DNA of 62,854 nt, counting the filler, from Nemertoderma westbladi (taxonomy: Eukaryota > Animalia > Xenacoelomorpha), in NCBI GenBank assembly GCA_032718475.1. It is 3 parts of 3 records of this genome, joined end to end, with 100 filler letters (N's around TTAATTAATTAA, not from the genome) between each part and the next. Parts side by side here need not be neighbours in the genome. Positions count along the whole stretch, not along the records: positions 31,598 to 56,234 come from JAUCBJ010008620.1; 2 more parts are not named here. One strand, 5' to 3'. The position numbers were made by a program, and so were the translations under genes. Shown here in pieces: positions 1 to 59,197 of the stretch. Position 1 is the first letter of the stretch. The number at the start of each line of letters is the position of its first letter. A model generated the notes under the pieces. The model was not told the origin of the DNA and did not search any database. It worked only from the letters and a program-made list of their open reading frames with translations.

Positions 1-928
1 TGGGTGTTGGGGTTATTTCTCGTTATTCCAATATAATAATTCATCAACAAATATAATGAATAACCGACAACAAATAGCAGTATGCAGTATTCATAGATCA
101 ATCGTGCCAGTTTGTTTTGATATTTACAGAGTTTAAAGCCAGGTTGTTTGATGCGTAATTGCAGCCAGGTCAGTTTTGTTTGATCATCAGTCAGTTAAAG
201 GATATATGTCCTTATAATTAAACCTCCTAGTGTTGAGCTAAAAAGCAGAAAGCATAAAACACTACAAAGCCGTTCTTTCGTGGCTTTGAAAAACTCGTGA
301 CTACTGCTCTATACGAGGATACCAACTCCCTTATTCCACGAAGCTCCCGTTCAACACAGAGAAAGAGCAGTGAGATAGGAAATTTTCAGTTCAGTACTCT
401 GTGATAGGTCAACATCAAGGATAACTCAAATTCTATTGGGAGATACAAAACAAGGCTATGACGCAACCTCCCTAGGCTTGTTGGCCGATTAAACAGAGCC
501 CAGATGCCTGCGTACAGCAAATCAGCCAATAAGCTGGTAACTTGCACTATTTTTAGCTGTAGATCACTTTGAGAGTATTCTTAGCGACTGGGGGGGAACT
601 GGCCAACAAGGCAAACGAATCAGTTATCCCACAAAAGCTTTTACAATAATATTAAATCAATGTACACTCTTAAAGCTGCAGCGAAAAAATGTAGATAATT
701 TCCTAGGTTACATATAAAATAATAATATTATTTTTAAGAACATTAATTTTACTACTTTGCAAAAATTAAAATAAAAATAACCAGACAAATATATTGCGGA
801 ATAAACTATTTCAGATATAAGCCTACAACAGTCATTATATCTTCTGTCACCTGAGATAGTAAGTAATACAACATTTATAGTATATATAGGAATTGAAATA
901 CAGGCAGTGTGGTTGGAGTTATGTCTGT

Positions 929-24005: not shown

Positions 24006-24995
24006 GTCCGATCACGCAGCTATCAGCATCAGGGCCATCCTGGCAGAATGGGGACTGCATTATTTAATATAAACATCACTATTGCACTTCCACACTACTA
24101 TTTTAATGCATTATTTTATTGCATGACCCTCCTCCCCCCAGATTGTGGTCAATTGTTTCAAGTTACTTAATTGTTTATTATATGTATTATTATTACTAAT
24201 ACACAGTTGAATTATTTTATTTATCTGACGTAATAAAACCCATTCAAACGTTTGTTTGAATTTTAGTTTTATTTAAATTTGTTATGGTATTCAAATTAGT
24301 CCTGAAGATCGGTTGCATGCAACCTACAGTAGTTCGACTACTAATCATACATCTCATTCGTTTCATTTTTTTAATAAAACTAGTCATATCTCCATGTCAA
24401 TCAACTATTAAAACATTCCCACTGTAAAGTAGACCTACTAGTTTACATACACCCCTTAGTAAGCTTATAGATTTACATTGTCATTATTTTTCAGTGTACA
24501 AAATAAATTTCTCTCTTTAATAATGTAAATAAACTGTTGAACTTGAACTTTACAATTTATTTAATTTCTAATATTATACCAATCTATAATTGCCACGGTT
24601 GTAAAACCAATAATAAGATTATAGTTTTAAGTTCATTGGCTTATTCAAATAAATGTAATGAGATTAATCAAGGAAACCATATAATTGCGGTTGGTTGGGC
24701 TACCCCGGTATGGATGAATCACTGTTTGCGCAACACTGATTCTAAATAAGGCATTCAACCAGACCAGAGACACAAGGGCCTAATTATATTACACAATGCT
24801 ATGCTGCAATTTGTTAAGCCGCAGAGGAAACAGATAAGGGACAGTGCAACCCCTTTCCAAGAAATCATGTCGTCCTCATGTTTAAACAAGGAGATAAGCT
24901 TATGATATTTATACCGGGTAACCGCATTTTCTGTCCTGGCTAAACATTTCAATATACATTACACAATTGTAACAATAATTAGTAAAATAAAAAAT

Positions 24996-25265
24996 ATGGC
25001 ACCATCAAGCATTACCTTATTAATATTATTATTTATCATTGTGGGAGTGGTGTTTGAGACCGTGGGAAGTCAGTACAGGAGTCTAGATCAATCGGTTACA
25101 GAGGAAATTCGTAAGGTTTATAGTTGTGGCGATTTTACAAGCAATATCTTACCGATAATGAGTGCTGTTTGCAATAATTGTTTCGCTAGAAGAACTAGAA
25201 GGCAAGCGCCAACACTATTTAGGACGACACGGGTAACGAGAAGCGAAGAAACAAACTTTGAAAGG
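24996..25265 (+). CDS. Insulin-like peptide precursor, exon 1 (signal peptide, B chain, C peptide)
   Basis: Hydrophobic signal, RK, B chain VYSCGDFTSNILPIMSAVCNNC, RRTRR and RVTR basic sites. Phase-0 donor AGG|GTTAGT at 25266. Confidence 0.85.
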
Positions 25266-30714: not shown

Positions 30715-31229
30715 TGCACAAATGTCAGAAATAATTAATTCCTTCAACCAGACACCGTAGCGCTAGAACCTGAGCTATTGTTGATCAATTAAGTCGAATT
30801 CCATTTTTTCTCTTACGCACTAGTTTCTCTACATGAGTTCTAATTCTGTATCGAATCATTAAGTTGTAAATTTTGGCAGAAACAAAGTATCTCATCCCAC
30901 GATAGTTTGGTGGTACGCCGAAGCTTTTAGTCAAATTTGGCGGCTTTCCCCACCAACAAATTTTAACTGTTGCTCTATGTGAGCAGTTGGTTGTTACTTC
31001 TTATGATTGGTGATGTAAGCCACTTTGAGGTCGGTCTTCTTTAGCTTTCTCAACCTTGTTGATGTTTTCGGCTGTTAGTTGTTCAGTTTTTACTTTGTAG
31101 GCAACCGGTATCTTAACATTTTCCACTATTTTTTAATCGATTCATTCGCATTATTAAATTTAATTAAATGTTACCAAATAAACTATAATCTATAAGATCT
31201 ATAATCTATTATATTACTTTCCCTTGCAG

Positions 31230-31439
31230 GATTGTTGCCATCGCGAGCTATGTAGTCCACACTTCTTAAGCGAGTATTGCTGCGATACAAGATGGTATGA
31301 ATTCCAAGAACTGGCTAATCCTCAAACTTCTACAGAAACTGAAACGGACTCAATTGCATCACCTTCTGTGTCAACAAGCAATACAAGAAGAAGAAGACGG
31401 AGCTCTTGGGAACATTTAAGTCGTAGAAAAGTTTATTGA
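31230..31439 (+). CDS. Insulin-like peptide precursor, exon 2 (A chain + C-terminal extension)
   Basis: Acceptor tttcccttgcag|, phase 0, gives DCCHRELCSPHFLSEYCC (CC-x4-C-x8-C), then a Ser/Thr-rich and RRRRR tail and a stop. Joins exon 1 in frame (159 aa). Confidence 0.85.
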   Translation, partial: DCCHRELCSPHFLSEYCCDTRWYEFQELANPQTSTETETDSIASPSVSTSNTRRRRRSSWEHLSRRKVY

Positions 31440-33348: not shown

Positions 33349-34665
33349 CGGCGCCCGGGATACAATGGTGTACCCGGAAAGAAGATGCGCAGATAAACGG
33401 ATAAATTCGGCGAAAATAAACATAATTTCAGCATTCTTTAAAGATACCGACAGACCCAGCAACAGACTGCGGGAATACAGGAATAACGGGAGTTTGCGTA
33501 AATTAGCGGGAATCTCGAACTGTCGAAAGCTTTCCCGAGATCACTTCCGTTTTTACTGTACCGGTACCCAATTGTGCCCACATCCAGATCGATCCGATAA
33601 CCGATCACGTCGCCTAGTCCATATGGTTGTCCATAGTCGTCAAAATGCCGCCCGAAACACTTCTTACCGTTTCCTCCGAAGCCAAAACTATTTTTATCAG
33701 TCCCGATATCGAGTGTCGCGCTTCCGGTGCTCCAACCAACCCGGCATGGGCCCTCGCACCTCGTCCTTTACCGTCGCCTCGTAATAGCTGAATAGTAACG
33801 AAACGACCGGATCCGACTATTCCTTTAGTCGTCCGGGTACCGTGCCAACTCCTCTGGCCACGCGCATGACACAGCAACCGTCCGGGGAGATGGCCAACTG
33901 GTCACCTCTATCGCTCTATCGAATGAGTTCAACTGAAATTTCGTAGGCCTAGTTCTTCCCCCCGATTTCCCATCGAGTTTTCCATCTCGGAGTTTGTACC
34001 GTAGAGTTTCATGGACCAGCTGTAGTATCGGGATACAGAATGCCCCGGTCTTCCCGCTTCCGCCGCCATCAGCACAGTCTCCACCGCCCAGGATCAGAGC
34101 TGCAGAGGGACAGCCTCACCCTGCAAGTTGGTCGGTAGACTCCATTCCAGGACATCCAACGCGCGTCCGATTTCCTTCTGAACACCACAGTCAGCTACAG
34201 AGCTACGAATGATCCCATACTGTGTACTGCAGTACTGCCATACCTGCATACTGCAGTACTGCCATGCCATATACAATAGCCTAATGCAATAGGCCAATAC
34301 AGCAATAGTCATACAACCAGACTGCGTTCAGTGTTAGGCAAAACAGAAGTAGGCCTAGCCAAACAGCTAGGCTTGTACAGTCTGCAGTCTGACAGTTGTA
34401 GCTATAATAATTGCCGAAATGCATCGGATCGGATCGGATCGGACGGCATCTGACTATAAATGCACCCTAGCAGGATTCTCGATTCAGGGATTGAGTACAG
34501 CCTGACAGTACCGGTACATATGGTACATGCAGAATTGCAAAATTTGTCAGAAAACCAGCTGATTTATCCTACAGTAATAATAATTTAACGCATTTTAAAT
34601 TTGGATAAATAAATTTATTATAACTGCAATAACAGTTACACTGATGCTGCACGAAGGCCCCACGC

Positions 34666-34924
34666 AAATTCTACTTGGAAAATTTTCAAACTTTTGCCAA
34701 ACAACATGTGTACCAAGTTTGGATAGATTTCATCAAGGATTGGCCGAGTTATTAACGTTTAAAATAAAATACTGAAAAAAAACGCGACAGAACGACAGAA
34801 CGACAGAACGACAGAACGACAGAACGACAGAACGACAGAACGACAGAACGACAGAACGACAGAACGACAGGTTGATTAATGGTACCACTACGCTAAGGCT
34901 CACTCACTTCGTGGCTCGCCCCAC
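34666..34924 (+). mobile_element. Helentron/DINE-1-like element with (GACAGAAC) x ~11 expansion
   Basis: Homologous to 929-1143; perfect 8-bp repeat at ~34785-34870. Confidence 0.6.
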
Positions 34925-35221
34925 ATACAACTTGAAACAAACACCAGTCGGGATCCCTCAAACAATTAAAACAAATATTTCAAGAAAGAAAGTTTTGGCA
35001 AGCTGTATTTTTCGAGGTGTTTGTTATGATACATTTATTATAGGAAGGGATCTAGGGGTCTTAACCTCGAATGATAAGTTTATTTTAACGAAAATAACTT
35101 TATCTTTTATTGGCGCATTTGTAGGACTAATCCCATCACATGCGTACTTTATAACCGGGTAGTGTACAAATTTAGGAATCGCGTAATTTTTCTTGAAATT
35201 AATACCTCATATCTCTCCAAA

Positions 35222-35262
35222 CCATGTACGCGTTTCGACCTTGCTGGGTCTCATCAGCGTGG
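35222..35262 (-). ncRNA. Type I minimal hammerhead ribozyme, copy 1
   Basis: CCACG-CUGAUGA-GACC-cagcaa-GGUC-GAAA-CGC-GUA-CAUGG: full core, 4-bp stem II, palindromic ACGCGU stem III and GUA cleavage triplet. Confidence 0.88.
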
Positions 35263-35609
35263 TGTCGGATTCAAACCTAGGACCTCGAGGTGGAAGCCGA
35301 GACAACAACCACTAGGCCACAGATTTCAAAGCCAGCTACCATTTTATTAGCCCCTGATTTTCATTATTGATAGTAACAAGGTTTTTTGCAAGCTGTATTT
35401 TTCGAGGTGTTTGTTACGATACATTTGTTATAGGAAGGGATCTAGGGGTCTTAACCTCGAATGATAGTTTATTTTACCGAAAATAACTTATCTTTTATTG
35501 GCGCATTTGTAGGACTAATCCCATCACATGCGTACTTTATAACCGGGTAGTGTACAAATTTAGGAATCGCGTAATTTTTCTTGAATTTAATATCTCATAT
35601 CTTTCCAAA

Positions 35610-35650
35610 CCACATACGCGTTTCGACCTTACTGAGTCTCATCAGCGTGG
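35610..35650 (-). ncRNA. Type I minimal hammerhead ribozyme, copy 2
   Basis: CCACG-CUGAUGA-GACU-caguaa-GGUC-GAAA-CGC-GUA-UGUGG. Differences from copy 1 fall in the loop or keep pairing through G-U wobbles. Confidence 0.9.
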
Positions 35651-35710
35651 TGTCGGATTCGAACCTAGGACCTCGAGGTGGAAGCCGAGACAATAACCAC
35701 TAGGCCACAG
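35651..35710 (-). promoter_or_regulatory. tRNA-Gly(TCC)-derived internal Pol III promoter (second copy at ~35263-35322)
   Basis: A box TGGCCTAGTGG, loop CTTCCAC and B box GGTTCGAATCC, ending directly at hammerhead stem I. Confidence 0.8.
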
Positions 35711-36690
35711 GTTCTTGAGATATGGAGTATTAATTTCAAAGCCAGCTATCATTTTATTAGTCCCTGATTTTTATTATTGATAGTAACAAGGTTTTGGCAA
35801 GCTGTATTTTTTGAGGTGTGTGTTATGATACATTTATTATAGGAAGGGATCTAGGGGTCTTAACCTCGAATGATAAGTTTATTTTAACGAAAATAACTTA
35901 TCTTTTATTGGCGCATTTGTAGGACTAATCCCATCACATGCGTACTTTATAACCGGGAATAGATGAAAGAAAGATGATGGTATGATCAACTAATTATTAA
36001 AATTGGTGAAAGGAACAAAGGTATATGTAGCACGAAGAGGATTTGTATGAAATGAAGTGGGACTAATACCAGTCATAGAAGTCACAACTTCAGTTCAACG
36101 TAATTAAGGATGGCATATATGCCTAGGGACACGACTAAACAATGCACCTGAAGGATTGGGCTTTTATCCCTGATAATATCCTGACTATTAACCTGATAAT
36201 AATACCGAAGGAATCCCAATTGGTGTTCAAAATTATATTGGACGCACAAATAAAAGTACAGAATGGAGGAACAGAGGCAACCATTCCATTGCGGAGGTGA
36301 GACATAATTAATTATTGGATACAATCATTACGATGGAAAATAAAGAACTGCATTAACAAATGCTTTACTCAGTCTCTCACTCACGTATTGTCATACGTGA
36401 GTGAGAGACTGAATCAGGCCTGAATAAGTGAACAAAGATAACATCCAGGTGTCTGTCTTTCGTTTTTGAAAACTCTTCAAATATTGTTCCAAAAGGGCTA
36501 CTTCATTTTTACAAACACACATCTGAAACTAAAGTCCAAATTCAAACTGGGGGGATATGTGTAAATGTGTATACTCAATTTGTGTGAGCGTTTACAGTAC
36601 AGTAGTTGCGCTTAAATTTATTATTTTAATATTTTTGATGAAGTAATAAATGTAATTCAAGTTAGTGTAGATAGTTGCAAAATTAATAAA

Positions 36691-36967
36691 AATAAGTAAA
36701 CGGAGCAATACAGCAATATCGTAAATATATTTCGAATTAATATTATAATTCATTGTCAATACAAACACACTAACTAATAGAAGATAGATATATTGAATAT
36801 GAGATATGTATGTAATCCTAATCGCATAATAATAATAATGGAATAATAACACAGTCCTGCAAACTGGCCTAACTATAAGTATACTTAGTGTGTTTGTATT
36901 GACAATGAATTATAATATTAATTCGAAATATATTTACGATATTGCTGTATTGCTCCGTTTACTTATT
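36691..36967. repeat. Perfect 83-bp inverted repeat with 111-bp spacer
   Basis: 36691-36773 is the exact reverse complement of 36885-36967. Confidence 0.9.
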
Positions 36968-37056
36968 ATTATTAATTTAATATTTTTGTTAAATTTGATG
37001 GGGCTAGACATTTAGACAAAATAGTAGATAAATTCTAAATATGTTTTAATACTCAC

Positions 37057-37213
37057 GGATGGTATAAGTCGTAGTGATGACACCTGATTATCAAGAACAG
37101 TATTCCAGTCTGCAGGTGTCGCATAATCACCAGGTTCTAGAATAACGTAATAGGAACCATGTGTGCTCACATGCCAATTGAAATTCTGCAGTAGCCATGT
37201 TCCACGAGTGATT
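37057..37213 (-). CDS. Internal exon of a beta/gamma-crystallin-domain protein
   Basis: Acceptor tttttttag and donor gtgagt bound 157 nt encoding ITRGTWLL..GSYYVILEPGDYATPADWNTVLDNQVSSLRLIPS (Greek-key G.W..L.PG.Y..W..SSLR pattern). Confidence 0.75.
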
Positions 37214-42465: not shown

Positions 42466-44274
42466 CCCTTTCCGGCCTGAATTAATTTAATTTAGGAAAA
42501 AAAATTGGTTGATCTTGTTAATGGGTTAATTAAACACCAAATAATAATTTTCGATGAAAAAATTTTCAAAAAATTATTTCCAATGTTGTTTTTTTTATTG
42601 TATACAAAAGTATACGTTAGGTATATGAAACATGTTCCCAATGTATACTTTTGTATACGAACTCTAGATTGTAAGTACTTACATACATAAATCGAGTAGT
42701 AAGTATATTCTCTCTCTCTCTATATATATATATATGTAGAATAAACAAAGCATGCAACGAGCAGGCAATTTTAATTATAAAAATTTAAATTATGTTTTTT
42801 GGTAATAAAAAGCTGTCAATACTGTGAAATTTGCCAAAATGCCAAAATTGTATAATTTTGTGTGTTTTCACAACACGCGTTGTTTAAAAGCAACACAGTG
42901 CGACAATAAAACTTAAAAATGAAGAATTATACAGTGAAGGTTTTTTTCTGTCAGTTTTGTTCAAGTTTGAAAAAAACAGTATTGACTGACTTTTTTCAAT
43001 TGTTTGTATGTCTATCTGCCCTGCCTGTATACTGTGGGTGTACAACATCTACTCCCCAACGGTGGCTGCACCACATCTACTCCCCAATGGTGGCTGAATA
43101 ACATCTACTCCCAAGGCCCAATGGTAAACATCTACTCCATGTGGTGGCTACACCACATCTACTCCGCAATGGTCAACATTTACTCCATTGGTCGCTACAC
43201 CACATCTACTCATCAATGGTCAGCATCTACTCCCCAATGGTGGCTGCACCACATATACTTATCAATGGTGGGTGCGCCAGATTTACTCCCCAATGGTGAC
43301 TGCGACACATCTACTCCCCATTAGTGGCTGCATCAGATCTAATCCCAAGGCCCAATGGTAACAGCGCCACATCTACTCCCAAATAGTGGCTGCATCACAT
43401 CTACTCCCTAATGGTGGGTGTGCTAGATTTACTCCCCAATGGTGACTGCGCCACATCTACTCCCCATTGTGGCTGCATTACATCTACTCCCAAGGCCCAA
43501 TAGTGACTGCGCCACATCTACTCCCCAATAGTGGCTGCATCACTTCTACTCCAAAGGCACAATGGTCAACATCTACTCCCCTATGGTTCTACGCCACATC
43601 TACTCCACAATGGTGACTGCACCACATTTATCCACAATGGTGGCTGCATCACCTCTACTACCCTATGGTCAACATCTACTCCCCATGGTGGCTGCGCCAC
43701 ATCTACACCCCAATGGTCAACATCGACTCCCCTATGGTGGCTGCACCACATCTAGGCCTACACCCCAATGGTGGATGCACCACATCACCCAAACGGTGGC
43801 TGAATCATATCTACTCCCCAACGGTGCTGCACCACATCTACTCCACAACTGTGGCTGCACCACTTCTACTCCCCAACTTTATAAACCTAACGTAGACAAA
43901 TGTATACAGTGAGTTATCAATAACACTACCAGCCTACCTGTACTGTAAAGTTTATCCTGGAAGTATTATTATCTCATTGGACAATCCATCTTTGGAATAC
44001 CCAATCAAAATTCTCAATATCGCTTTGCCAAAGCGTTTAAATAACCATCTTTCCTATACCAGGTAGTCATCATGTCAATACATGAAAACAGGGCATCTAA
44101 AATCGTTCATTGAAGCCTTCTACTACAATTATCCAATCAGAATCGGTAATTTCTAAATAAAGGAAGTGTGATAGTGCCACAATTGGATGAAACCAACTAT
44201 AATTAGTTAAAATTATGCAATCCGTAGTGAAATAAATTCAGTGTATACAAAAATATACAGTCGGCCGGAAAGGG
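42466..44274. mobile_element. Non-autonomous piggyBac-type element carrying a minisatellite
   Basis: TTAA|CCCTTTCCGGCC ... GGCCGGAAAGGG|TTTTAA. Confidence 0.75.
43040..43878. repeat. Minisatellite of mixed ~28-bp and ~21-bp units (CCACATCTACTCCCCAATGGTGGCTGCA)
   Basis: About 30 diverged units; accounts for the ORFs called here. Confidence 0.92.
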
Positions 44275-49041: not shown

Positions 49042-51447
49042 TCAGTTCATCCCCCCTGACTTTGGGAACCACCTCAAGTCTTTCCCTTTGCCGTCCTCCT
49101 CCCTGGGTCGTTTCCTGGTCACTACCGCTCCTCTGGGATCCGCTTTCTGTCTTCGGACCCTCGCCGCCACCTCCTTACTGATCCCGGTCGTTGGCTCCCT
49201 GGGTGCTGGTGTTATCAGCTCCCGATATCGCTTCGCGGGTGGCCCCTCCAAGTGGCCCTGTTGTCTCCCCCTGGTGGCGTCCCATATGATCATCTTCATT
49301 GCCCGCAGCATGTGCTCCGCCAGGAAATCCCTAAACTCCCCTCGGTTCTGTGGCGTCCACCTGTCCAAATACCTTCGTGTATTCATCACCCCGGCATACG
49401 ACGCAGCCGTTGCTACCTCTTGATAGGTAAACGGTAGCCTCCGCTTTATGATTTCCATGTGAGCCTCCTGATTGATAAGGAAGAAACCCCACTTGAACTC
49501 CTGGGCCTTCATGCGCTGGCGCGTCATGGCCCCGACGTCAGCCCACTCCTCGAATCTTCTGAACTTCTCTTCGTCGTCCATCCAGTCGTACTGGCGTCCG
49601 TAGTGTCCCCGAAAGTTGCACTTCGGACATCGGTTATGCAACTGTGGACACGCCCCCATCCTGTGGCTCGACTCGCGGCAGTAGAGACAAAAGGTTCCCT
49701 TTTGGAACCGGTACAAACAGCTCCTTTCCTGGTGGGTCTGTCTCCCACAGTAGTCGCAACCGAGTACCAATGTCTCCCGCCCCACGTAGTCTTTCGTCCC
49801 AAGCGATCTCCGCGGTCTGTGGAGTCGCTGGTAGGCGAACTTCTGCACGTTGGTGTCCCTGTCTACGTCGATCTCTCCGCCCCTCTCGGGCATCGTCTCC
49901 CCGAATACTACCCGTGGTGCCGTCCCCGGTTGCTCGCCCAACCTGATAGTGCTCCCCGCGAAATCCATCGCCGGCTCCTCGTGCACCCAGGCCCGCTTGT
50001 CGGGTCTATCCCAGAAGGCCCTCGCCCCACTGGCCGTCACCACCCTCCCGCCAACCCAGTCCGTGTCCGAGTGGCCAATCCTCTCGATGGGCGGCACCCC
50101 TCCGAACTCGTCGTCGTCTTCCTCCTCCTCTGGCAGTGGCTCCAACCCCGGTATCCCGATGGATCCACTATGTCCCTTTCCGCCTTGGCTCTCGCCCGTA
50201 GCTCTCCATCCCTCTAGCTCCCTTAGCTTCCTTGGCGGTTGGTCGCCTTCGGCGCCCGCTGGTATGGGCATCGCTTGCAACCCCGACGTCGACTGTTTCG
50301 GCGATCCCACCGTCCATCCCAATTCTCGCCCTAGAGACTCCCCCGAACTCCCTGATGAAGTCCAACGAAGTTCGTCTAAGCCTGCCTGTTCCTCGAAGCC
50401 GTAACTCTGCGTCCTGGCCTCCTCCTCCCTCTCCTCTGCTTCTATCCTCTCCCGTCTAGCGACTTCTTCCAGTCGCTTTGCTTCTCGTCTATCCGTCTCT
50501 AGCTGCTCCCATCTCTGATACGGCGTATCTGTCTCCCCGTCTATCAGATGTCGGCTGTTGTAGTACACCGACTCGCCCTTCAGCCCCGGGTGGTCTACCA
50601 GACCGTCGAAGGCCGTTTTAAAGGCTCTCCTGTAGCTTAGGGGTGATCCCAATAACAGAAATGCCGCTGGTTCCCTCTCGATAACCACGATCATGAATAA
50701 GTTAAGCAAACTTATCATCATCCAATCTTCCTGCAGGATATATCGCTTCTGATATACCTTTATCGCTCCTCTGCGGAATTGATATACCTCCTGCTTTCCC
50801 GGTCTCGCTCCCCACTTTAGCGAGTTCGCTAGTTCTGCTCCATATTCCTCCCTGAACTTCCCCCAGTCCATCGGTTTGTGGCATACGAGCCCCAATAGTT
50901 GGCCCATTGCCACCGCCCCGCATTGGCCTGTGTTCCCGACTACCCCCAACCCATCTGGTGCCGTCATAGCCATGAAGACCTTCTGCATATCCAGGAGGTT
51001 GGTGGCGTCCGGACCGATGATTCTCTCCGCATCCTCGCGAATCGCCGATCCCACTTTCGTCGTCGACTTCTCTCTTACCAAGACTTGCACCGCTTTTGGC
51101 AACCGGTTTAATTTCGGCCCGTCCTTCTTCCCATACGTTCCTAGATCGAATAAGAAGATGTCCCCATTTGGCGCGGCCAAATGCAGGAGTATGGTCCTGG
51201 CCGACCCCGCTGATCCTCGTCTCGAACCCTCCTCGTCTTCCACGGTTCCCTCGTCGTCTAGGATCATATATCCTCCCCTGTTGACGGACTCTATGAATCT
51301 CTTCCAATCCTTCCTCGGTGACTCCCTCGGGTACTTCTGAATCCCGAACTTCGCCTCGTCCCCTTTCACCACGTAGTGGAAGTGTTGGAAGATCGCGTTG
51401 TCCAGCGACGGCGTGCCGTAGGTCCCGACCAGCCGCTGTTCGTGCAT
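49042..51447 (-). CDS. Retrotransposon accessory protein: DEDDy-type 3'-5' exonuclease-like domain + acidic/coiled linker + CCHC zinc knuckles (probable original start at 51606)
   Basis: ILDDEG (ExoI), LLHLAAPNGDIFLFDL, LPKAVQVLVREKSTTKVGSAIREDAERI (ExoII), NLLDMQ, KWGARP, QKRYILQED (ExoIII-like). Knuckles CDYCGRQTHQERSC, CLYCRESSHRMGAC and CPKCNFRGH. Confidence 0.8.
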   Translation of the reverse strand: MHEQRLVGTYGTPSLDNAIFQHFHYVVKGDEAKFGIQKYPRESPRKDWKRFIESVNRGGYMILDDEGTVEDEEGSRRGSAGSARTILLHLAAPNGDIFLFDLGTYGKKDGPKLNRLPKAVQVLVREKSTTKVGSAIREDAERIIGPDATNLLDMQKVFMAMTAPDGLGVVGNTGQCGAVAMGQLLGLVCHKPMDWGKFREEYGAELANSLKWGARPGKQEVYQFRRGAIKVYQKRYILQEDWMMISLLNLFMIVVIEREPAAFLLLGSPLSYRRAFKTAFDGLVDHPGLKGESVYYNSRHLIDGETDTPYQRWEQLETDRREAKRLEEVARRERIEAEEREEEARTQSYGFEEQAGLDELRWTSSGSSGESLGRELGWTVGSPKQSTSGLQAMPIPAGAEGDQPPRKLRELEGWRATGESQGGKGHSGSIGIPGLEPLPEEEEDDDEFGGVPPIERIGHSDTDWVGGRVVTASGARAFWDRPDKRAWVHEEPAMDFAGSTIRLGEQPGTAPRVVFGETMPERGGEIDVDRDTNVQKFAYQRLHRPRRSLGTKDYVGRETLVLGCDYCGRQTHQERSCLYRFQKGTFCLYCRESSHRMGACPQLHNRCPKCNFRGHYGRQYDWMDDEEKFRRFEEWADVGAMTRQRMKAQEFKWGFFLINQEAHMEIIKRRLPFTYQEVATAASYAGVMNTRRYLDRWTPQNRGEFRDFLAEHMLRAMKMIIWDATRGRQQGHLEGPPAKRYRELITPAPREPTTGISKEVAARVRRQKADPRGAVVTRKRPREEDGKGKDLRWFPKSGGMN

Positions 51448-52082
51448 CTCCCGGAAGTGATCCTGCAGCGCTCATGCCGCGTGACCCTTTTCCAACCTCT
51501 CGTAGTATCCTCTCGTCTTCTCTTCCGGATGCCTCTCGGTGAAATCCACCAGTATCTCCTTTCCTCCTGACTCCGCCTTTCTCTTTCTGATCAATTTGCT
51601 CGCCATTCCGAACACTCACTCGCTCACCTGTAAGGTGGTGTCTTACCAATGCGCAATACAGATGAGTGATGTATCTAAGATGTTCTGTACGGTCCGATAA
51701 TGGCCTATTTCCTATCTAATGGCGCCTTTTAGTCTAAATTCTTACTATTTAATTCCCTAGCTAATAAATGAGCCTAATTTACAATTTCTGTCCGTTACTT
51801 TAATTATGTTCCAGAATTTTCTTATCGCTGTTACCATAATTTGTAATTCTTAGCCCTTTTTCTTATTTATTCTAATTTATTTTAACCCTACTGTCTTACC
51901 ACTTGCTACTGCCTATGGATTATTCTATCTCCTAATCCACATTCTGGCCTACTCTGTGGGCCTGTGCAGTACAGCAGTATATGTCGCGCGGCCTACACGA
52001 TCTATACAACTGTACTCATATGCCCCCCTCTCGCTACTAACTGCTAATTAATATCTATATTATATACCCTTCTACCTCTTAC

Positions 52083-52545
52083 TCTCTCTCTAACTAACGG
52101 TACTACGTACCCTCTAACTCTCTAACTAACGGTACTACGTACCCTCTAACTCTCTAACTAACGGTACTACGTACCCTCTAACTCTCTAACTAACTAACAG
52201 TACTACGTACCCTTTAACTCTTTAACTAGCGGTACTACGTACCCTCTAACTCTTCTCTAACTAACGGTACTACGTACCCTCTAACTCTCTAACTAACGGT
52301 ACTACGTACCCTCTAACTCTCTAACTAACTAACGGTATTACATACCCTCTAACTCTCTAACTAGCGGTACTACATACCCTCTAACTCTTCTCTATCTAAC
52401 GGTACTATGTACCCTCTAACTCTCTAACTAACGGTACTACGTGCCCTCTAACTCTCTCCTAACTAGCGGTACTACGTACCCTCTAGCTCTCTCCTAACTA
52501 ACGGCACTACGTACCTCCTAACTAACTAAGTAACTCTAGATACTA
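52083..52545. repeat. Minisatellite inside the retrotransposon, ~32-36-bp unit TAACTAACGGTACTACGTACCCTCTAACTCTC, about 13 copies
   Basis: Direct inspection; lies between the pol stop and the accessory ORF. Confidence 0.93.
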
Positions 52546-52708
52546 CGTATCTTCTTACTGACTAACTTCTGCCTACTAACTGCGTACCTACTATGTACTA
52601 TTATTTTATTTTTATTTTCTATTTTTTATGTGTGGGAAAGGGCGTCTCGCCCTCAATCCCACCCCCCTCAGTCCAAAACTTGGACGACTAAACTCTTCTC
52701 TAACTCCA

Positions 52709-55700
52709 CTAAGGTGCCCCTTCTAACAGACAGCATTTCCCTACAGCTCTCCTGTAGGTTTTTCTGTCCTTCGCACCTATCTTACCACCTATCCGCATTT
52801 CTACCGATCGGACTCTTCCGTCTTCGTCGGAGTAAGTGCCTACAACTCTCGCCAACCGCCATTGGTTGTTGATGAAAGTATCATCCGTAACGATTACGAG
52901 ATCTCCCTCTCTTAACTCTCTATTCGGCTTCCTCCCCTTGCTTCTTTTATGGAGCGTGGGTAGGTATTCTTCTACCCACCTCCTCCAATACTCTGCGCTT
53001 ATTGCTTTAGCGACTTTCCAACTCTGGCGGGAGTGTATGTCATCTAGGTCTACACCCCGCATGTCGATGGTCGCTGGCCTTTCCATTAGAAAATGGCTGG
53101 GTGTCAGCACATCTAATGACTCAGGGTCATCATTCTCCGGATATAGCGGTCTACTATTAATGATCCCCTCGCACTTCGCAAGCACTGTCCTTAAGACGTC
53201 CTCAGTGACCATGTGGGTGTTCATTAGCTTCGTCATTAGACGCTTTGAACTGCCCACCAGTCTCTCGACGCATCCTAGTGTATGTGGTGCATACGGCGTC
53301 CTTCTCTCCCACTTTACTTGTCGTCGTCTCATGGCCGCCCTGACTTCCTCCCCTTCCAAGATGTCCAAGGCCTCTGCCATCTCATTCTCTGCTCCCACAA
53401 AGTTGGTTCCGCTGTCGGAGTACATTACTGCGATCGTCCCACCTTTGCGGTCTCTGAATCTATCTAATGCATTAATGAATGCTGATGCGGTTGCATCTTG
53501 GGCGAGTTCTATCCCTACCGCCCGCGTGTTGTTACATACGAAGATGATACCGTAGCGTTTCTCCGTGTGCCGCATCACCTTGATCTTTATCGGCCCGAAC
53601 ATGTCCACACCGCAATGTGTAAATGGCGGGTCGTGCTGTCTTACTCTACTCGCCGGTAGTGGCGCCATCTCTTGTATGGCTCGCTCCTTCTTCGCTCGTC
53701 GGCAGGTCTGGCACTGCCCCACTACCGCTTTTACCTTCTTCCTCAACTGCTTGACCCAAAAGGTCCTCCTTATCTCCGTGAGAGTTCTGTTGGTGCCCCC
53801 GTGCAATATCGACTTATGGGAGTCCCAGATAATCTGGTGGACTATTGGCGATCCTGTGGGAATGATGATGGGTTTCGGTGGTACGATTATGCTGTTGTTG
53901 TATCCCACCCTAGAATTCATTACTAGAATCCCGTCATCATTAAGTTGTGGCGACAGCGTGATCAGCTCGCTGTCCTGTCGAAGGTGCTGTTGGTTACCGA
54001 TGCGTTCCACCTCGTCGCCATAGTTCTTCCGTTGTTCATAGCGGATGACTGCCTTGGCCGCTCCTTCCAGATCTATGGTTGTCCTGATCTTCTTGTCTTT
54101 GCCAACTCCCGCGAGGAAATTCCCGAAGGCTCTCCAGTACGCCACTAATTTCTTGGTCTTATACCAACTAGAGCTGTAGCTGAGGAGTTTATCTGTCGGG
54201 TTATCGCACAGTTCTTCTGATTTAGGTTGCACGTCCCTTATCTCCCTCACCATCTGGGAGTATATCTCTTCTCCCTCTGAATCTCCCTCTTCTCCTTCTG
54301 ACACTACCTCTCCTGAGTCCGGGTCCACCTTTCTCATCGGCGGCCAGGCCTCCTTGTCGCTCAGAAACTGCGGCCCGTGTTGCCACAATCTTTCCTTTTT
54401 TAAGAAAGTGTGGCGTGCCACGCCCCGTGATAACAAGTCCGCTGGGTTCTCATCCGTTGGGCAGTAGTGCCACCTTTCCAATTCTGTGGTCGCCCTTATC
54501 TCGTCCACCCTGTTCGCGACGAATATTGGGTATCTCGTCCTTTCGTTATGTAGCCAACCAAGCACTACCATGGAGTCCGTCCAGTAGTGTGTCTCCACTA
54601 TGTTGGGAATAGTATCCACTAGGTAGGCTGTGGCTCTAACTCCTAGTCTCGCTGCTGTCAATTCTAACTTGGGAACTGATGCTGAATCTGGCGGCGTTGA
54701 CTTTGCTTTGCTAAAGGCCAGTCTGGGCTTGTGAGCCCCCTCTCGTTGTACTAAATAGAGTACCGCTCCGTACGCCTCCAACGACGCATCGGAGAACATG
54801 TGTAGGTCCAGATTCGTCATGTTCCCATCCGGGAAATACACTCGTGGCATGTCGTATGTTCCCATCTTCTCCAATTCTCCTGTCCACTTACTCCACTGTT
54901 TCTTGATTTCCTCTGGTACCTCTACGTCCCACTCATCCTTCAATTTGTATACTCTCTTGAGTATCTGTTTCCCCGTGACTAATAATGGGGATGCTAGGCC
55001 TAGGGGATCGTATATCCTTGCTATATACGATACATAGCCCCTCTTCGTGTGGATGTCTGCGCCCTCCTGGCTCAGCTGATACTTCAGTTCGTCTGTCTCT
55101 CTGTTCCACACGATTCCCAATGCCTTCTGTTGAGATTCTGTTCTCTTGTTCGCCATGTCCTGCCCTTTGGCTGTTGTGGGATTATCTATGGTCGATTCTG
55201 GTCTCTTGTCCTCTATCGCCTTGATAAATTCTTCCGAACTGGATTGGAATTTGGTCAGGTTAAAGCTGGATCCTTTTAGGATGTCGCGAACCTTGCGCCC
55301 TGTGTCCAGTATCTCCTTAACCGTATTTCCAGACTCCATTCCGTCATCTACGTAGAAGCCGCGTCGAATCATATCGACGGCCCTAGTGCTGTATCTATCT
55401 TCCTTCCCCTTCACTGTATCTCTCACTGCCATAGTCGTCGTAAATGAAGACGACTTGGCTCCCATGTTTTGTACTACCATCTTATATGCAGGTATTATCG
55501 ACGGTTCTTCCTCGCCGTTGTACCATAAGAAGCGTTGACTGTCGCTATCTTCCTCCGTTACACGGACTTGGTTGAACATGCCTTCTATGTCACACGTGAA
55601 GGCGTGTTTCCCATTCCTAAATCTAAGTAGGACCTCTATGCCCGAGTTGTATATGTTTGGACCTTCTAACAGATAGTCGTTTAAGCATTTTCCGTTGGTC

Positions 55701-56234
55701 TTTGCCGATGCGTCAACTACCATCCGCAGTTTACCTTTCTTTGGGTCTAAAGCCACGTGGAGTGGCAGGTAATATGTCCTGTCCGTGTTCGGTTCATCGA
55801 CCGGTAACTCCACGGCCCATCCTTTCTCGACGTACTTCTTAATCGTTCTGTGGATGTACTCATTCTTCTCGGGGCTCCGTTTTAGTGTTTGTTTCAGCTT
55901 GCGGAGTCTCGTGAGTACCATCCCTCTATTATTGGGCAGTGGTATCTTCGGTAGTTTCCATACCATTCCTATGGTGTACCGCCCCTCGTCGCACTTCATA
56001 GACTCCTCTACGCTCTGCTGAGCCTGTTTGTCTTCCACCGAGGTCCCGACCCCGGTCTCCTTTAATCCTTCAAAATCCTGTCTGAGCAGTCTTTTAAGTT
56101 GCTCCTCTGCTCTCTCATCACTCATTTCCTGCATAATTCCCGCGAACATGCATCCTGATGTCTCCGACATCCTAAATGGTATCTTGATCTTGATTGGGCC
56201 ACTTAGCGTCCACCCGAATGGTGTCAGTATCGCC
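52709..56234 (-). CDS. pol: BEL/Pao Pol polyprotein (RT, RNase H, integrase, C-terminal DUF5641-like); open to the gap
   Basis: YYLPLH..KLRMVVDAS..LNDYLLEGP, FYVDD, LHMFSDASLEAYGAVLY, NPADLLSRG, H..LHGG..C..C, GVDMFGP, SDSGTNF and YWRRWVEEYLPTL; no stops. Confidence 0.97.
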
Positions 56235-56334
56235 NNNNNNNNNNNNNNNNNNNNNNNNNNNNNNNNNNNNNNNNNNNNTTAATTAATTAANNNNNNNNNN
56301 NNNNNNNNNNNNNNNNNNNNNNNNNNNNNNNNNN
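56235..56334. other. Assembly gap with TTAATTAATTAA linker
   Basis: N-run / linker / N-run. Confidence 0.97.
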
Positions 56335-57308: not shown

Positions 57309-57830
57309 TAGTGAATATTTTTCCCTACGTGTTGTAGTTAATGTACACACCGCTGACGTGCGCTATATACCACGGAATAATACTGTAAATATAGATAGAT
57401 ATTTAGTATATACACACAGTGTACTTTATTTAGTATTCCATGGGTAAATACTGCATACTGTATCTCTAAATTGCAGGAGTGAGCGTTAAAGTGTTATCTA
57501 AATTAAAGCAAGACCAGTGAATGATTTGTGATTATTGTTGACAAATTATTACTGAACCAAATGCAGCAATATCAATAAAGTGTGTATCGCTAGCACTGTA
57601 TACCAGTATACTGTACGCGTACTGTAAAGCTGTGTACCCCCCCCCCCCCCCCCCCCCCATGCATATGCTTGCCTAATTAATTGCATTATTGCTATTCAGC
57701 TATAGTAGTACAATACAGCAGTAATACGGTATTTTATTTTGTTAGGCCTAGTAAAAGTAGGGACTAATAAAAACAGTAGTATTTGTTTAATAAATACAAT
57801 TTACGCAATAAAATAATACTGAAATATCAA

Positions 57831-58802
57831 ATGAAGTTCTTTATTGAAATTGTAACCTGGAACGTGGCTATGCAACTCCCTAATGAAACCCTTAATGAAT
57901 TACTTCTGAACAGAAACTCAGAAAATGAAGCCGATTTGATAGCAGTTGGATTACAAGAATACCAAGTGTTTCCAGTGAACCAGATCTCCCAAATGATAGA
58001 CTGGGACCCTTGGACAGGCGCCTGTATGCAGGCCTTACGTCGGAGAAAATATGTACTCGTTAGACAAGTGAAACTCTTAGGGATGTTACTAAATATATTC
58101 CTGCGACAAACACACATCCCTTATATGTGCGAGATGGCCACGTCTTCCGTTAACCTCCTGCAGTGGCTCCGTCCGACTAGCAATAAAGGCAGCGTTATAT
58201 TCGCGTGTTCGCTCTACGGCCAACCCGTATGCTTGGTCAACTGTCACCTACCCCCAGGTCCTAGCAACTGGGACAGCCGAAATGATTCCTACCAAGTTAT
58301 TAAGGATACAACTCTTAAAGGGCGGACTATTCTCGATCATAACATTGTTTTCTGGTTCGGTGACTTGAATTATAGAATTCACACATTGGGTAACGAAATT
58401 GTAAGAAAAGAAGTCTCATCCAAGGATTATCGCAACCTTATAGAGAGCGATCAATTATTAGTCTCAATGAATATGGGCAGCGCATTTTGTGGGTTTAGCG
58501 AAGGTCCGATAGTTTTCCAACCGACTTACAAGTACGACATAGATACGGACAGGTTTGACACGAGTGATAAAAAGAGGATTCCAGCGTACTGCGACAGAAT
58601 TCTGTTCTTGGATAAACTCGGTATTGTTTCACTAAAGGAATACAAATCATTTATGAGTTACAAACACAGCGACCACAAACCCGTGCGTGCTCGGTTCTCG
58701 GTGGTGTTTGAAACGGCGTCGCAGACACCTGTTGTTACGTTCTCACGGTTGAGTTACTGGTTCAACTCTTTGAATCTCGATGTGTTTTACAATATAACCC
58801 AG
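57831..58802 (+). CDS. INPP5K: Inositol polyphosphate 5-phosphatase K/J-like, exon 1 (catalytic domain)
   Basis: VTWNVA, AVGLQE, NKGSV, VNCHLP, WFGDLNYRI, PTYKYD, PAYCDRIL and SDHKPV. Phase-0 donor CAG|GTAATT at 58803. Confidence 0.9.
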
Positions 58803-58909
58803 GTAATTTCGGTTCACTTTTCTGGACAGCTTTATGCACATATATAACGCTACTAGTTATATATACCGCAGTTAACTTAATAATGTTTCTATCGTTTCTA
58901 CTTTTCTAG

Positions 58910-59197
58910 GATGACTATCTTACATCTTCATGGGATTGGATCGCCCTATATAAAATCGACTTCAACAGCCCCAAGGATTACCTCGCCTACTCTTATTGCA
59001 ACACATCCAAAGAAACATTTGGAATCTACAGATATCATACAATTATACAAGAAAACAAACTCCCTTCTAATGTCGGATTGTATTTGTTAGGTTACTATAG
59101 CTACGCGAAGCAGTCTATATTGGGATTGAGTGACCCTTTCCAATTGTTATCACCTAATGGTGTTTCCCACGCAATGGAGTTAATGTCTTTGTGTTAA
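58910..59197 (+). CDS. INPP5K: Inositol polyphosphate 5-phosphatase K/J-like, exon 2 (SKICH domain)
   Basis: Acceptor cttttctag|, in frame: SSWDWIALYK..DYLAY..YLLGYYS..ILGLSDPFQ, the SKICH signature. Total 419 aa. Confidence 0.88.
   Translation, partial: DDYLTSSWDWIALYKIDFNSPKDYLAYSYCNTSKETFGIYRYHTIIQENKLPSNVGLYLLGYYSYAKQSILGLSDPFQLLSPNGVSHAMELMSLC

What the first reader, a model, noticed from the sequence alone, without database searches (positions are those of the whole stretch)
34992..35957. Tandem tRNA-promoter + hammerhead units: a candidate retrozyme producing a 388-nt RNA
Seen in sequence: 2.4 tandem units. On the minus strand each full unit has Pol III A/B boxes from a tRNA-Gly(TCC)-like head abutting a complete type I hammerhead core. 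Predicted GUA cleavage sites at 35227 and 35615 are 388 nt apart. Stem III is the palindrome ACGCGU. Established: minimal metazoan hammerheads with palindromic stem III cleave as dimers, tandem non-LTR retrozymes yield circular RNAs, and schistosome Sm-alpha repeats combine Pol III boxes with a hammerhead. Inference: a non-coding mobile RNA family that carries its own promoter and spreads as concatemers by reverse transcription of a circle. The array starting and ending mid-unit fits that model.
Basis: partly seen in the sequence, partly recalled or inferred. Interest (0 to 1): 0.85.

Follow-up and report, generated by a model that had tools for sequence, protein, structure and literature searches.

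The report
tRNA-promoter hammerhead repeat family, decayed copy
This is a slightly decayed 2.4-unit copy of a very abundant 410-base non-coding repeat of an animal that places a tRNA-type promoter sequence directly in front of a hammerhead ribozyme motif, a design already known from blood flukes; its RNA is predicted to cut itself into one-unit pieces that likely close into circles and are likely copied back into the genome by Penelope-type jumping genes.

Summary
Observation confirmed: 2.35 tandem units (34993-35957, minus strand). Two carry A/B boxes and a canonical type I hammerhead with an ACGCGU stem III; the GUA sites at 35615 and 35227 are 388 nt apart. My descriptor finds 2 hammerheads in the window and none in 100 shuffles.

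Correction: 388 nt is a local 22-nt deletion variant; the family unit is 410-411 nt. The family is very high-copy (contig depth about 10^5-10^6 against about 30 on the unique flank), has head-to-tail joints, and its majority letters repair 5 weakened base pairs of this copy. The 3' ends of dispersed copies cluster 188-197 nt after the cut site, in varied AT-rich flanks, as Penelope internal priming would give; a 9-bp target duplication is likely. A 23-bp stem would clamp the monomer's two ends.

Caveats: no cleavage, circle or Pol III transcript is shown; a TTTT lies 132 nt past the cut; no partner element was found.

It works like a non-LTR retrozyme built as schistosome Sm-alpha is, with a Gly-like rather than Gln-derived head. 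This scan noted similar designs in several other genomes. New member of a known kind.

The parts
34993..35957 (-). Whole array, 2.35 head-to-tail units
35548..35957 (-). Full-length 410-nt period (family-type length)
   Evidence: head-to-tail joint 35957->35548 in 11, 3, 7 and 1 contigs of X1, X2, X3, X5
35160..35547 (-). 388-nt period lacking 22 nt (equivalent to 35711-35732) and one more base net
   Evidence: deletion not listed at 1% share or more
34993..35159 (-). Partial third unit (3' end of the array on the transcribed strand)
35697..35707 (-). A box, upper copy (lower copy 35309-35319)
   Evidence: sequence
35655..35665 (-). B box, upper copy intact; lower copy 35267-35277 has C56>T at 35273
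35655..35714 (-). tRNA-derived head, anticodon loop read as UCC (Gly-like); predicted to refold as a rod, not a cloverleaf
   Evidence: relaxed ARAGORN calls both heads among 7 calls; 18 of 20 listed BLAST rows are tRNA-Gly at E 2-8; folds
35609..35651 (-). Type I hammerhead 1: stem I 35651-46/35614-09, core 35645-39, stem II 35638-25, palindrome 35621-16, predicted cut between 35615 and 35614
35221..35263 (-). Type I hammerhead 2, predicted cut between 35227 and 35226; C.A mismatch at stem I pair 2 (35225)
35717..35739 (-). 5' arm of a 23-bp closing stem, at or upstream of the expected Pol III start; mostly deleted in the lower unit
   Evidence: (I3)
35581..35603 (-). 3' arm of the closing stem, just after the cut site (lower copy 35193-35215)
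   Evidence: 5' ends of other copies at 35579 in 4, 4 and 5 contigs
35890..35893 (-). Only T4 run of the unit on the transcribed strand (also 35480-35483 and 35091-35094), 132 nt after the cut
35828..35837 (-). Family hot spot of 3' ends (candidate reverse-transcription start), 188-197 nt after the cut
   Evidence: loose ends; distances
34984..34992 (+). Candidate 9-bp target-site duplication, left copy
   Evidence: null fraction 0.00085
35965..35973 (+). Candidate 9-bp target-site duplication, right copy, after a 7-nt filler

Best explanation
The locus is one decayed insertion of a very high-copy, non-coding 410-nt tandem repeat family whose unit joins tRNA-derived A/B boxes to a canonical type I hammerhead; it likely works as a self-promoted retrozyme, with transcripts predicted to self-cleave as hammerhead dimers, likely close into circles, and likely be reverse-transcribed by a Penelope-like element. 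Inferred steps: (1) Pol III starts at one unit's head and reads through one leaky TTTT into the next unit. (2) Two hammerheads pair through the ACGCGU palindrome and cut out a 410-nt monomer. (3) A 23-bp stem plus stem I holds the monomer's two ends together for a host ligase (RtcB type). (4) A Penelope-type RT/endonuclease primes internally about 190 nt after the cut site, at an AT-rich nick, and copies more than one unit. This gives permuted arrays, each with a promoter upstream of a full unit. This copy has since decayed, and its own 388-nt product is probably defective.
For: Shown: anatomy above chance. High copy number: 2922, 1178 and 1594 contigs on one unit; summed depth 1.1e5-9.4e5 against 27-48 on the unique flank, which is present with no differing letter over 473 nt in X1-X3. 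Head-to-tail joints. A closed 441-nt contig, 411 nt plus a 30-nt overlap, in X5. Majority letters turn 5 weak pairs of the upper copy into Watson-Crick pairs: 35586 and 35603 (closing stem), 35614 (stem I), 35635 (stem II), 35667 (head helix). Long, low-agreement AT-rich flanks attach at 35828-35837: 17+11+9 contigs in X1, 19+5+10 in X2, 13+13 in X3. This array's own 3' end lies about 38-47 nt beyond that hot spot, like the 30-40 bp Penelope 'tail' between two internal RT starts (PMC11167929, PMC8557442). Candidate 9-bp TSD. 7 of 17 non-majority letters are shared by every array copy that covers them, which fits one template. Established: single-pair helix III with a palindromic tetraloop needs dimers, tandem type I repeats give circles, and RtcB ligates them (PMC7229834). 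Sm-alpha has promoter then hammerhead in tandem, the upstream unit driving the next (PMC6765202).
Against: No cleavage, circle or Pol III transcript was observed; all runs laid are contigs. The X5 cycle would look the same from low-coverage DNA of tandem arrays. A TTTT lies 132-135 nt after the cut, before the 3'-end hot spot, so the template needs read-through or Pol II. Whole-unit folding is not more stable than shuffles (circular z -1.3 for 410 nt, -0.3 for 388 nt). No autonomous partner was found and no genome is held. Only 18 of 564 and 24 of 245 loose-end rows were shown, and the 35828 cluster abuts mismatches of this copy, so true ends may lie a few bases further. The shared letters fit local duplication or an uncleaved multimer equally well, and site 35887 does not fit a single template. 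Only 1 of 9 Xenopus dimers cleaved in vitro (10.64898/2026.07.22.740005). Hammerhead cleavage was not needed for insertion by the anole Penelope enzyme (PMC11167929).
Confidence: 0.6

Rival explanations
1. Same family and same Penelope-type mobilisation, but the template is a linear, uncleaved multimer (Pol III or Pol II read-through); the hammerhead cuts rarely and circles are a by-product or absent.
For: Anole PLE inserts unprocessed RNA, and its hammerhead is protein-assisted and dispensable in vitro (PMC11167929). No cluster of copy ends at the cut site in the rows shown. One site (35887) differs in a way a single circle does not explain. The array lies 1.1 kb downstream of a same-strand exon, so Pol II may cross it.
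Against: The hammerhead is canonical with Watson-Crick stems I and II in the majority form, and the closing stem pairs sequence from both ends of the cut monomer. The same stem can, however, also form within an uncleaved multimer.
Confidence: 0.2
2. The unit is the pseudo-LTR of an autonomous Penelope element that captured a tRNA promoter; these arrays are its truncated ends.
For: PLE-like ends and tail. Retrozymes resemble pLTRs in Xenopus (10.64898/2026.07.22.740005). Unchecked notes e1-8862452 and e1-10340415 read similar units this way in other genomes.
Against: Helix I of 6 bp, helix II of 4 bp and no extra base at 9/10.1 match the canonical class, not the PLE min-HHR (PMC4209133). The unit closes on itself at 410-411 nt. 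No long, high-agreement extension at one junction appears in the rows shown. The one long repeated contig seen (X4, 1831 nt) has three broken core positions.
Confidence: 0.1
3. A satellite DNA amplified at the DNA level, with promoter and ribozyme now vestigial.
For: Very high depth with very few variants at 1% share or more fits homogenised arrays. No RNA evidence.
Against: Many dispersed junctions share a 10-nt 3' window; there is a candidate TSD; the majority form keeps the boxes and the stems.
Confidence: 0.08
4. A single-locus tandem duplication of an ordinary SINE with a chance hammerhead.
For: The copies in this array share 7 non-majority letters.
Against: The head-to-tail joint and the intact hammerhead are family-wide; 0 hammerheads in 100 shuffles.
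Confidence: 0.02

Closest known systems
Sm-alpha / Sj-alpha SINE-like hammerhead retroposons of Schistosoma (PMC6765202, PMC2770079, PMC8490949, passages read; Ferbeyre 1998 not held)
   Same: tRNA-derived Pol III promoter directly followed by a type I hammerhead; tandem arrangement in which the upstream unit would transcribe the next; high copy number.
   Different: Head reads as Gly(UCC)-like, against tRNA-Gln(TTG)-derived for the Sm-alpha-like SINEs; unit 410 against 335 bp; host unplaced, with no flatworm among the named rows of the 120 best hits of a neighbouring gene. The 23-bp closing stem and the 3'-end hot spot do not appear in the passages read. Sequence homology to Sm-alpha was not tested.
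Metazoan non-LTR retrozymes (PMC7229834; bioRxiv 10.64898/2026.07.22.740005)
   Same: Tandem non-coding units of 150-450 bp with a canonical type I hammerhead, GC below 50%, TSD longer than 4 bp; helix III like axolotl HHR_Amex1; a length variant of about 20 nt, as in coral.
   Different: No tRNA-type promoter is mentioned in PMC7229834 (0 hits for 'pol iii' and 'sine' in its main text; supplements not read). Circles are shown there, not here.
Penelope/Poseidon PLE pLTRs, e.g. anole PAc (PMC11167929, PMC4209133, PMC8557442)
   Same: Type I hammerhead, partial-tandem insertions, AT-rich junctions, preferred internal 3' ends with a further end about 40 nt on.
   Different: No ORF; canonical rather than minimal hammerhead; internal tRNA-type promoter.

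Membership tests
Non-LTR retrozyme | Tandem units of about 150-450 bp | tested here: met
   410/388-nt periods; family-wide head-to-tail joint
Non-LTR retrozyme | Canonical type I hammerhead in consecutive units | tested here: met
   Rfam HH9 below its gathering score
Non-LTR retrozyme | Non-coding, no LTR structure, GC below 50% | tested here: met
   GC 37% (153 of 410); the two ORFs of 75 aa or more that overlap the array reach no Pfam cut-off
Non-LTR retrozyme | Multi-copy and dispersed; TSD longer than 4 bp when present | tested here: met
   one candidate 9-bp TSD with a 7-nt filler
Non-LTR retrozyme | Self-cleavage of the RNA | not testable with these tools
   folding only
Non-LTR retrozyme | Expressed as a monomer-length circular RNA | tested here: inconclusive
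   closed 411-nt contig in X5, whose RNA label is a guess
Sm-alpha-type SINE-like retroposon | tRNA-derived A/B boxes immediately 5' of the hammerhead | tested here: met
Sm-alpha-type SINE-like retroposon | Pol III transcription through into the next unit | not testable with these tools
   T4 at nt 132-135 of the monomer
Sm-alpha family proper | tRNA-Gln(TTG)-derived head, about 335 bp | tested here: not met
   UCC anticodon loop and 410 nt; Gln origin from PMC2770079, length from PMC8490949
Sm-alpha family proper | Sequence homology to Sm-alpha; schistosome host | not tested
   no Sm-alpha sequence was on hand; host unplaced
PLE pLTR | Flanks an RT + GIY-YIG ORF | tested here: inconclusive
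   none beside this locus; genome not held
PLE pLTR | Minimal hammerhead (helix II 7-8 bp, helix I 4-5 bp, extra base at 9/10.1) | tested here: not met
   helix I 6 bp, helix II 4 bp, no extra base (PMC4209133, which also notes PLE variants with a palindromic helix III)
PLE-mobilised element | Preferred internal 3' ends, AT-rich junctions, 30-40 bp tail | tested here: inconclusive
   hot spot 35828-35837 and this array's end about 40 nt further fit, but only 18 of 564 rows were shown

The most novel reading that the evidence does not exclude
An independent, non-schistosome origin of a self-promoted retrozyme: a young family whose tRNA-Gly promoter, dimer-dependent hammerhead and end-clamping 23-bp stem make a 410-nt circular RNA that a Penelope enzyme copies from a fixed internal start about 190 nt after the cut. 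It would give a defined substrate for testing the proposed but unshown circle-to-genome step of animal retrozymes.
Probability: 0.35. Interest if true: 0.6.

Novelty: new member of a known kind. Interest (0 to 1): 0.38.

Why it matters
How animal retrozymes are transcribed and re-inserted is proposed but not shown in the papers read. This family has an identifiable promoter, a predicted cut site, a stem that would join the monomer's ends, and a preferred 3' insertion end, so each step is a concrete prediction. If the host is not a trematode, the Sm-alpha design arose more than once. The design itself is known, and this locus is a decayed copy.

Tried and rejected
No whole genome is held, so copy number, array lengths and partner elements could not be mapped.

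Sequencing runs: no RNA holder listed. 5 of the 7 listed runs were laid (X1-X5; X6 and X7 were not). X5's lack of cover on the flank is uninformative.

T-run depletion on the transcribed strand as a sign of Pol III selection: rejected (1 run seen, 1.7 expected, P about 0.46).

Overall stability of the monomer: not above shuffles. Only the 166-nt head, hammerhead and stem region is (z -2.5, 3 of 200 shuffles), and the 23-nt inverted repeat (3 of 300).

Relatives in other collections: a B-box + hammerhead pattern gave 2 loci in metagenome contigs, both in prokaryote-like sequence and without stem II, and 4 in viral contigs, of which 1 has hammerhead stems. The family-specific pattern gave 0 in genome and viral contigs.

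tRNA isotype: no Rfam tRNA hit and none by default ARAGORN; relaxed ARAGORN gives 7 calls in 1.15 kb, 5 of them elsewhere; BLAST support for Gly is below significance.

A GIY-YIG-like motif in the right flank was rejected: it aligns to the window's BEL/Pao polyprotein.

Host taxon: INPP5K hits are about 28-41% identical. A 121-row tree did not finish; a 49-row tree (48 of the 120 hits) leaves the query on a long branch. A DDX1 fragment search found nothing.

Ferbeyre 1998 and Lunse 2017 are not held.

Full report
Observation. The array spans 34993-35957, 965 nt or 2.35 periods, and has no second copy in the window. Read on the minus strand, two units carry an A box (35707-35697; 35319-35309), a B box 31 nt later (35665-35655; 35277-35267) and, 3 nt after it, stem I of a type I hammerhead. 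The cores are complete (CUGAUGA, 4-bp stem II opening with G-C, GAAA, CGCG, UA), with H17 at 35615 and 35227. A descriptor that requires the stems finds these 2 in the window and 0 in 100 shuffles; the A..B pattern hits 3 times against a mean of 0.1. The bare motif is at chance level. Rfam gives only sub-threshold HH9 matches. The hammerhead and B-box numbering and the box consensus are recalled.

The 388 figure. The two periods are 410 and 388 nt; the shorter lacks 22 nt just upstream of the A box. In 4 runs no such deletion is listed at 1% share or more. The family joint goes back 410, and one closed contig gives 411. So 388 is local. The missing segment is most of one arm of a 23-bp stem (35739-35717 with 35581-35603). 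That stem has 18 Watson-Crick pairs in this copy, reached by 3 of 300 shuffles, and 20 with the majority letters. It lies at or upstream of the expected Pol III start (10-20 nt before the A box, recalled). Both arms therefore meet only in a read-through transcript or in the cut monomer, where they join its two ends.

Family. Of 7 listed runs, 5 were laid. In X1-X3 (2 samples) 2922, 1178 and 1594 contigs fall on one unit. Summed depth is 1.1e5-9.4e5 against 27-48 on the unique flank, which matches without a differing letter. The tool warns that this is no copy number; allowing up to about 31-fold overlap of short contigs, I infer at least several hundred and probably thousands of units. At 17 sites the majority letter differs from the upper copy. 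Five of these lie in predicted helices, and all five restore Watson-Crick pairs. Seven are shared by every array copy that covers them. The locus thus descends from one variant template and has decayed since: G.U at stem I pair 1 in the upper copy; C.A at pair 2, B-box C56T and the deletion in the lower.

Ends. Among the 18 of 564 loose-end rows shown, long flanks of low agreement (0.42-0.53), AT-rich, attach on the 3' side at 35828-35837 in all three runs. That is 188-197 nt after the cut. A smaller set attaches at 35773. This array's own 3' end is about 38-47 nt beyond the hot spot. Among the 24 of 245 rows shown, 5' ends recur at 35579 (4, 4 and 5 contigs), the base of the closing stem, where an RT could stall (inference); 3' ends also recur at 35597. 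No cluster appears at the expected start site or at the cut. A 9-mer flanks both sides with a 7-nt filler (null fraction 0.00085). Internal RT starts, AT-rich targets and a 30-40 bp tail are Penelope traits (PMC11167929, parts 1-2 of 4; PMC8557442, passages).

Mechanism. Shown: anatomy, high copy number, tandem joints, dispersed junctions. Predicted: dimer folding; forcing the double hammerhead costs 8 kcal/mol over the minimum-energy fold, two single ones 22. Inferred from established work: dimer cleavage, circles and RtcB ligation (PMC7229834: passages, Results parts 1-2 of 3, Discussion); the upstream promoter driving the next unit (PMC6765202, passages); mobilisation by Penelope elements (bioRxiv 10.64898/2026.07.22.740005, parts 1-3 of 5). 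Against: one TTTT per unit 132 nt after the cut; no RNA evidence beyond an ambiguous closed contig in X5; no excess stability of the whole monomer; hammerhead cleavage dispensable for the anole enzyme; 8 of 9 Xenopus dimers inactive.

Comparison. By the helix sizes in PMC4209133 (parts 1-2 of 4) this is a canonical metazoan hammerhead, not the Penelope minimal type. U at position 1.7 and a 6-nt loop II ending in A resemble the Sm-alpha tertiary contact (recalled, not tested). Promoter followed by hammerhead in tandem is the Sm-alpha design. Sm-alpha-like SINEs derive from tRNA-Gln (PMC2770079, passages) and measure 335 bp (PMC8490949, passages), so this is not Sm-alpha itself. PMC6155905, PMC5680766 and PMC10886601 (passages) added nothing decisive. 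Six literature searches (listings, plus the papers named here) showed no paper describing this family or a tRNA-headed retrozyme outside schistosomes. Subscription papers, Repbase and all supplements were not seen and may hold such cases. Unchecked notes of this scan report similar designs in other genomes; none matched this sequence, and none in this genome mentions a hammerhead.

Context. The host is an animal on a long branch, unplaced. The array sits among decayed repeats, beside a BEL/Pao relic and 1.1 kb downstream of a same-strand crystallin-like exon.

Verdict. A real feature: a decayed member of an abundant, homogeneous retrozyme-like family of Sm-alpha design. New member of a known kind; interest 0.38.

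Noticed in passing
window 33441-34190 (-): Decayed, apparently intronless DEAD-box helicase fragment with a SPRY domain (Pfam E 7.8e-12); the DDX1 label is recalled. Likely a processed pseudogene.
   Followed up: partly
window 37057-37213 (-): Clean AG/GT exon coding a beta/gamma-crystallin-like motif (E 5e-4, below the Pfam cut-off); the array may lie in its intron or 3' region, in sense orientation. The next exon was not found.
   Followed up: partly
window about 24990-25200 (+) and ORF 31182-31439 (+): Signal peptide with an insulin-like B-chain pattern and, 6 kb on, a CC-x4-C-x8-C A-chain-like pattern: possible two-exon insulin-like peptide gene (by eye; no Pfam hit).
   Followed up: no
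window 57780-59194 (+): INPP5K-like phosphatase with its catalytic domain in one long open frame and a separate SKICH exon; at most about 39% identical to any near-full-length hit.
   Followed up: partly
window 49042-56278 (-): BEL/Pao LTR retrotransposon with a 1159-aa open pol frame and an 809-aa upstream ORF without a Pfam match; a decayed relative lies at about 36196-36370 (+).
   Followed up: no
run X4, record 26: 1831-nt contig at depth 401 carrying a copy of the tRNA head and a hammerhead broken at three core positions near one end: a larger repeat that captured a dead fragment.
   Followed up: no
L004 about 590-650 (-): Viral contig with a hammerhead (4-pair stem II, 6-pair stem I) directly after a T-loop-like motif; no tRNA called and no Rfam hit.
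   Followed up: partly
window 36680-36978, 36362-36419, 34785-34870, 43034-43876: MITE-like 97-nt inverted repeat (98% complementary), a 27-nt hairpin, a CGACAGAA microsatellite within a repeat also found near 930-1144, and a 28-nt minisatellite.
   Followed up: no
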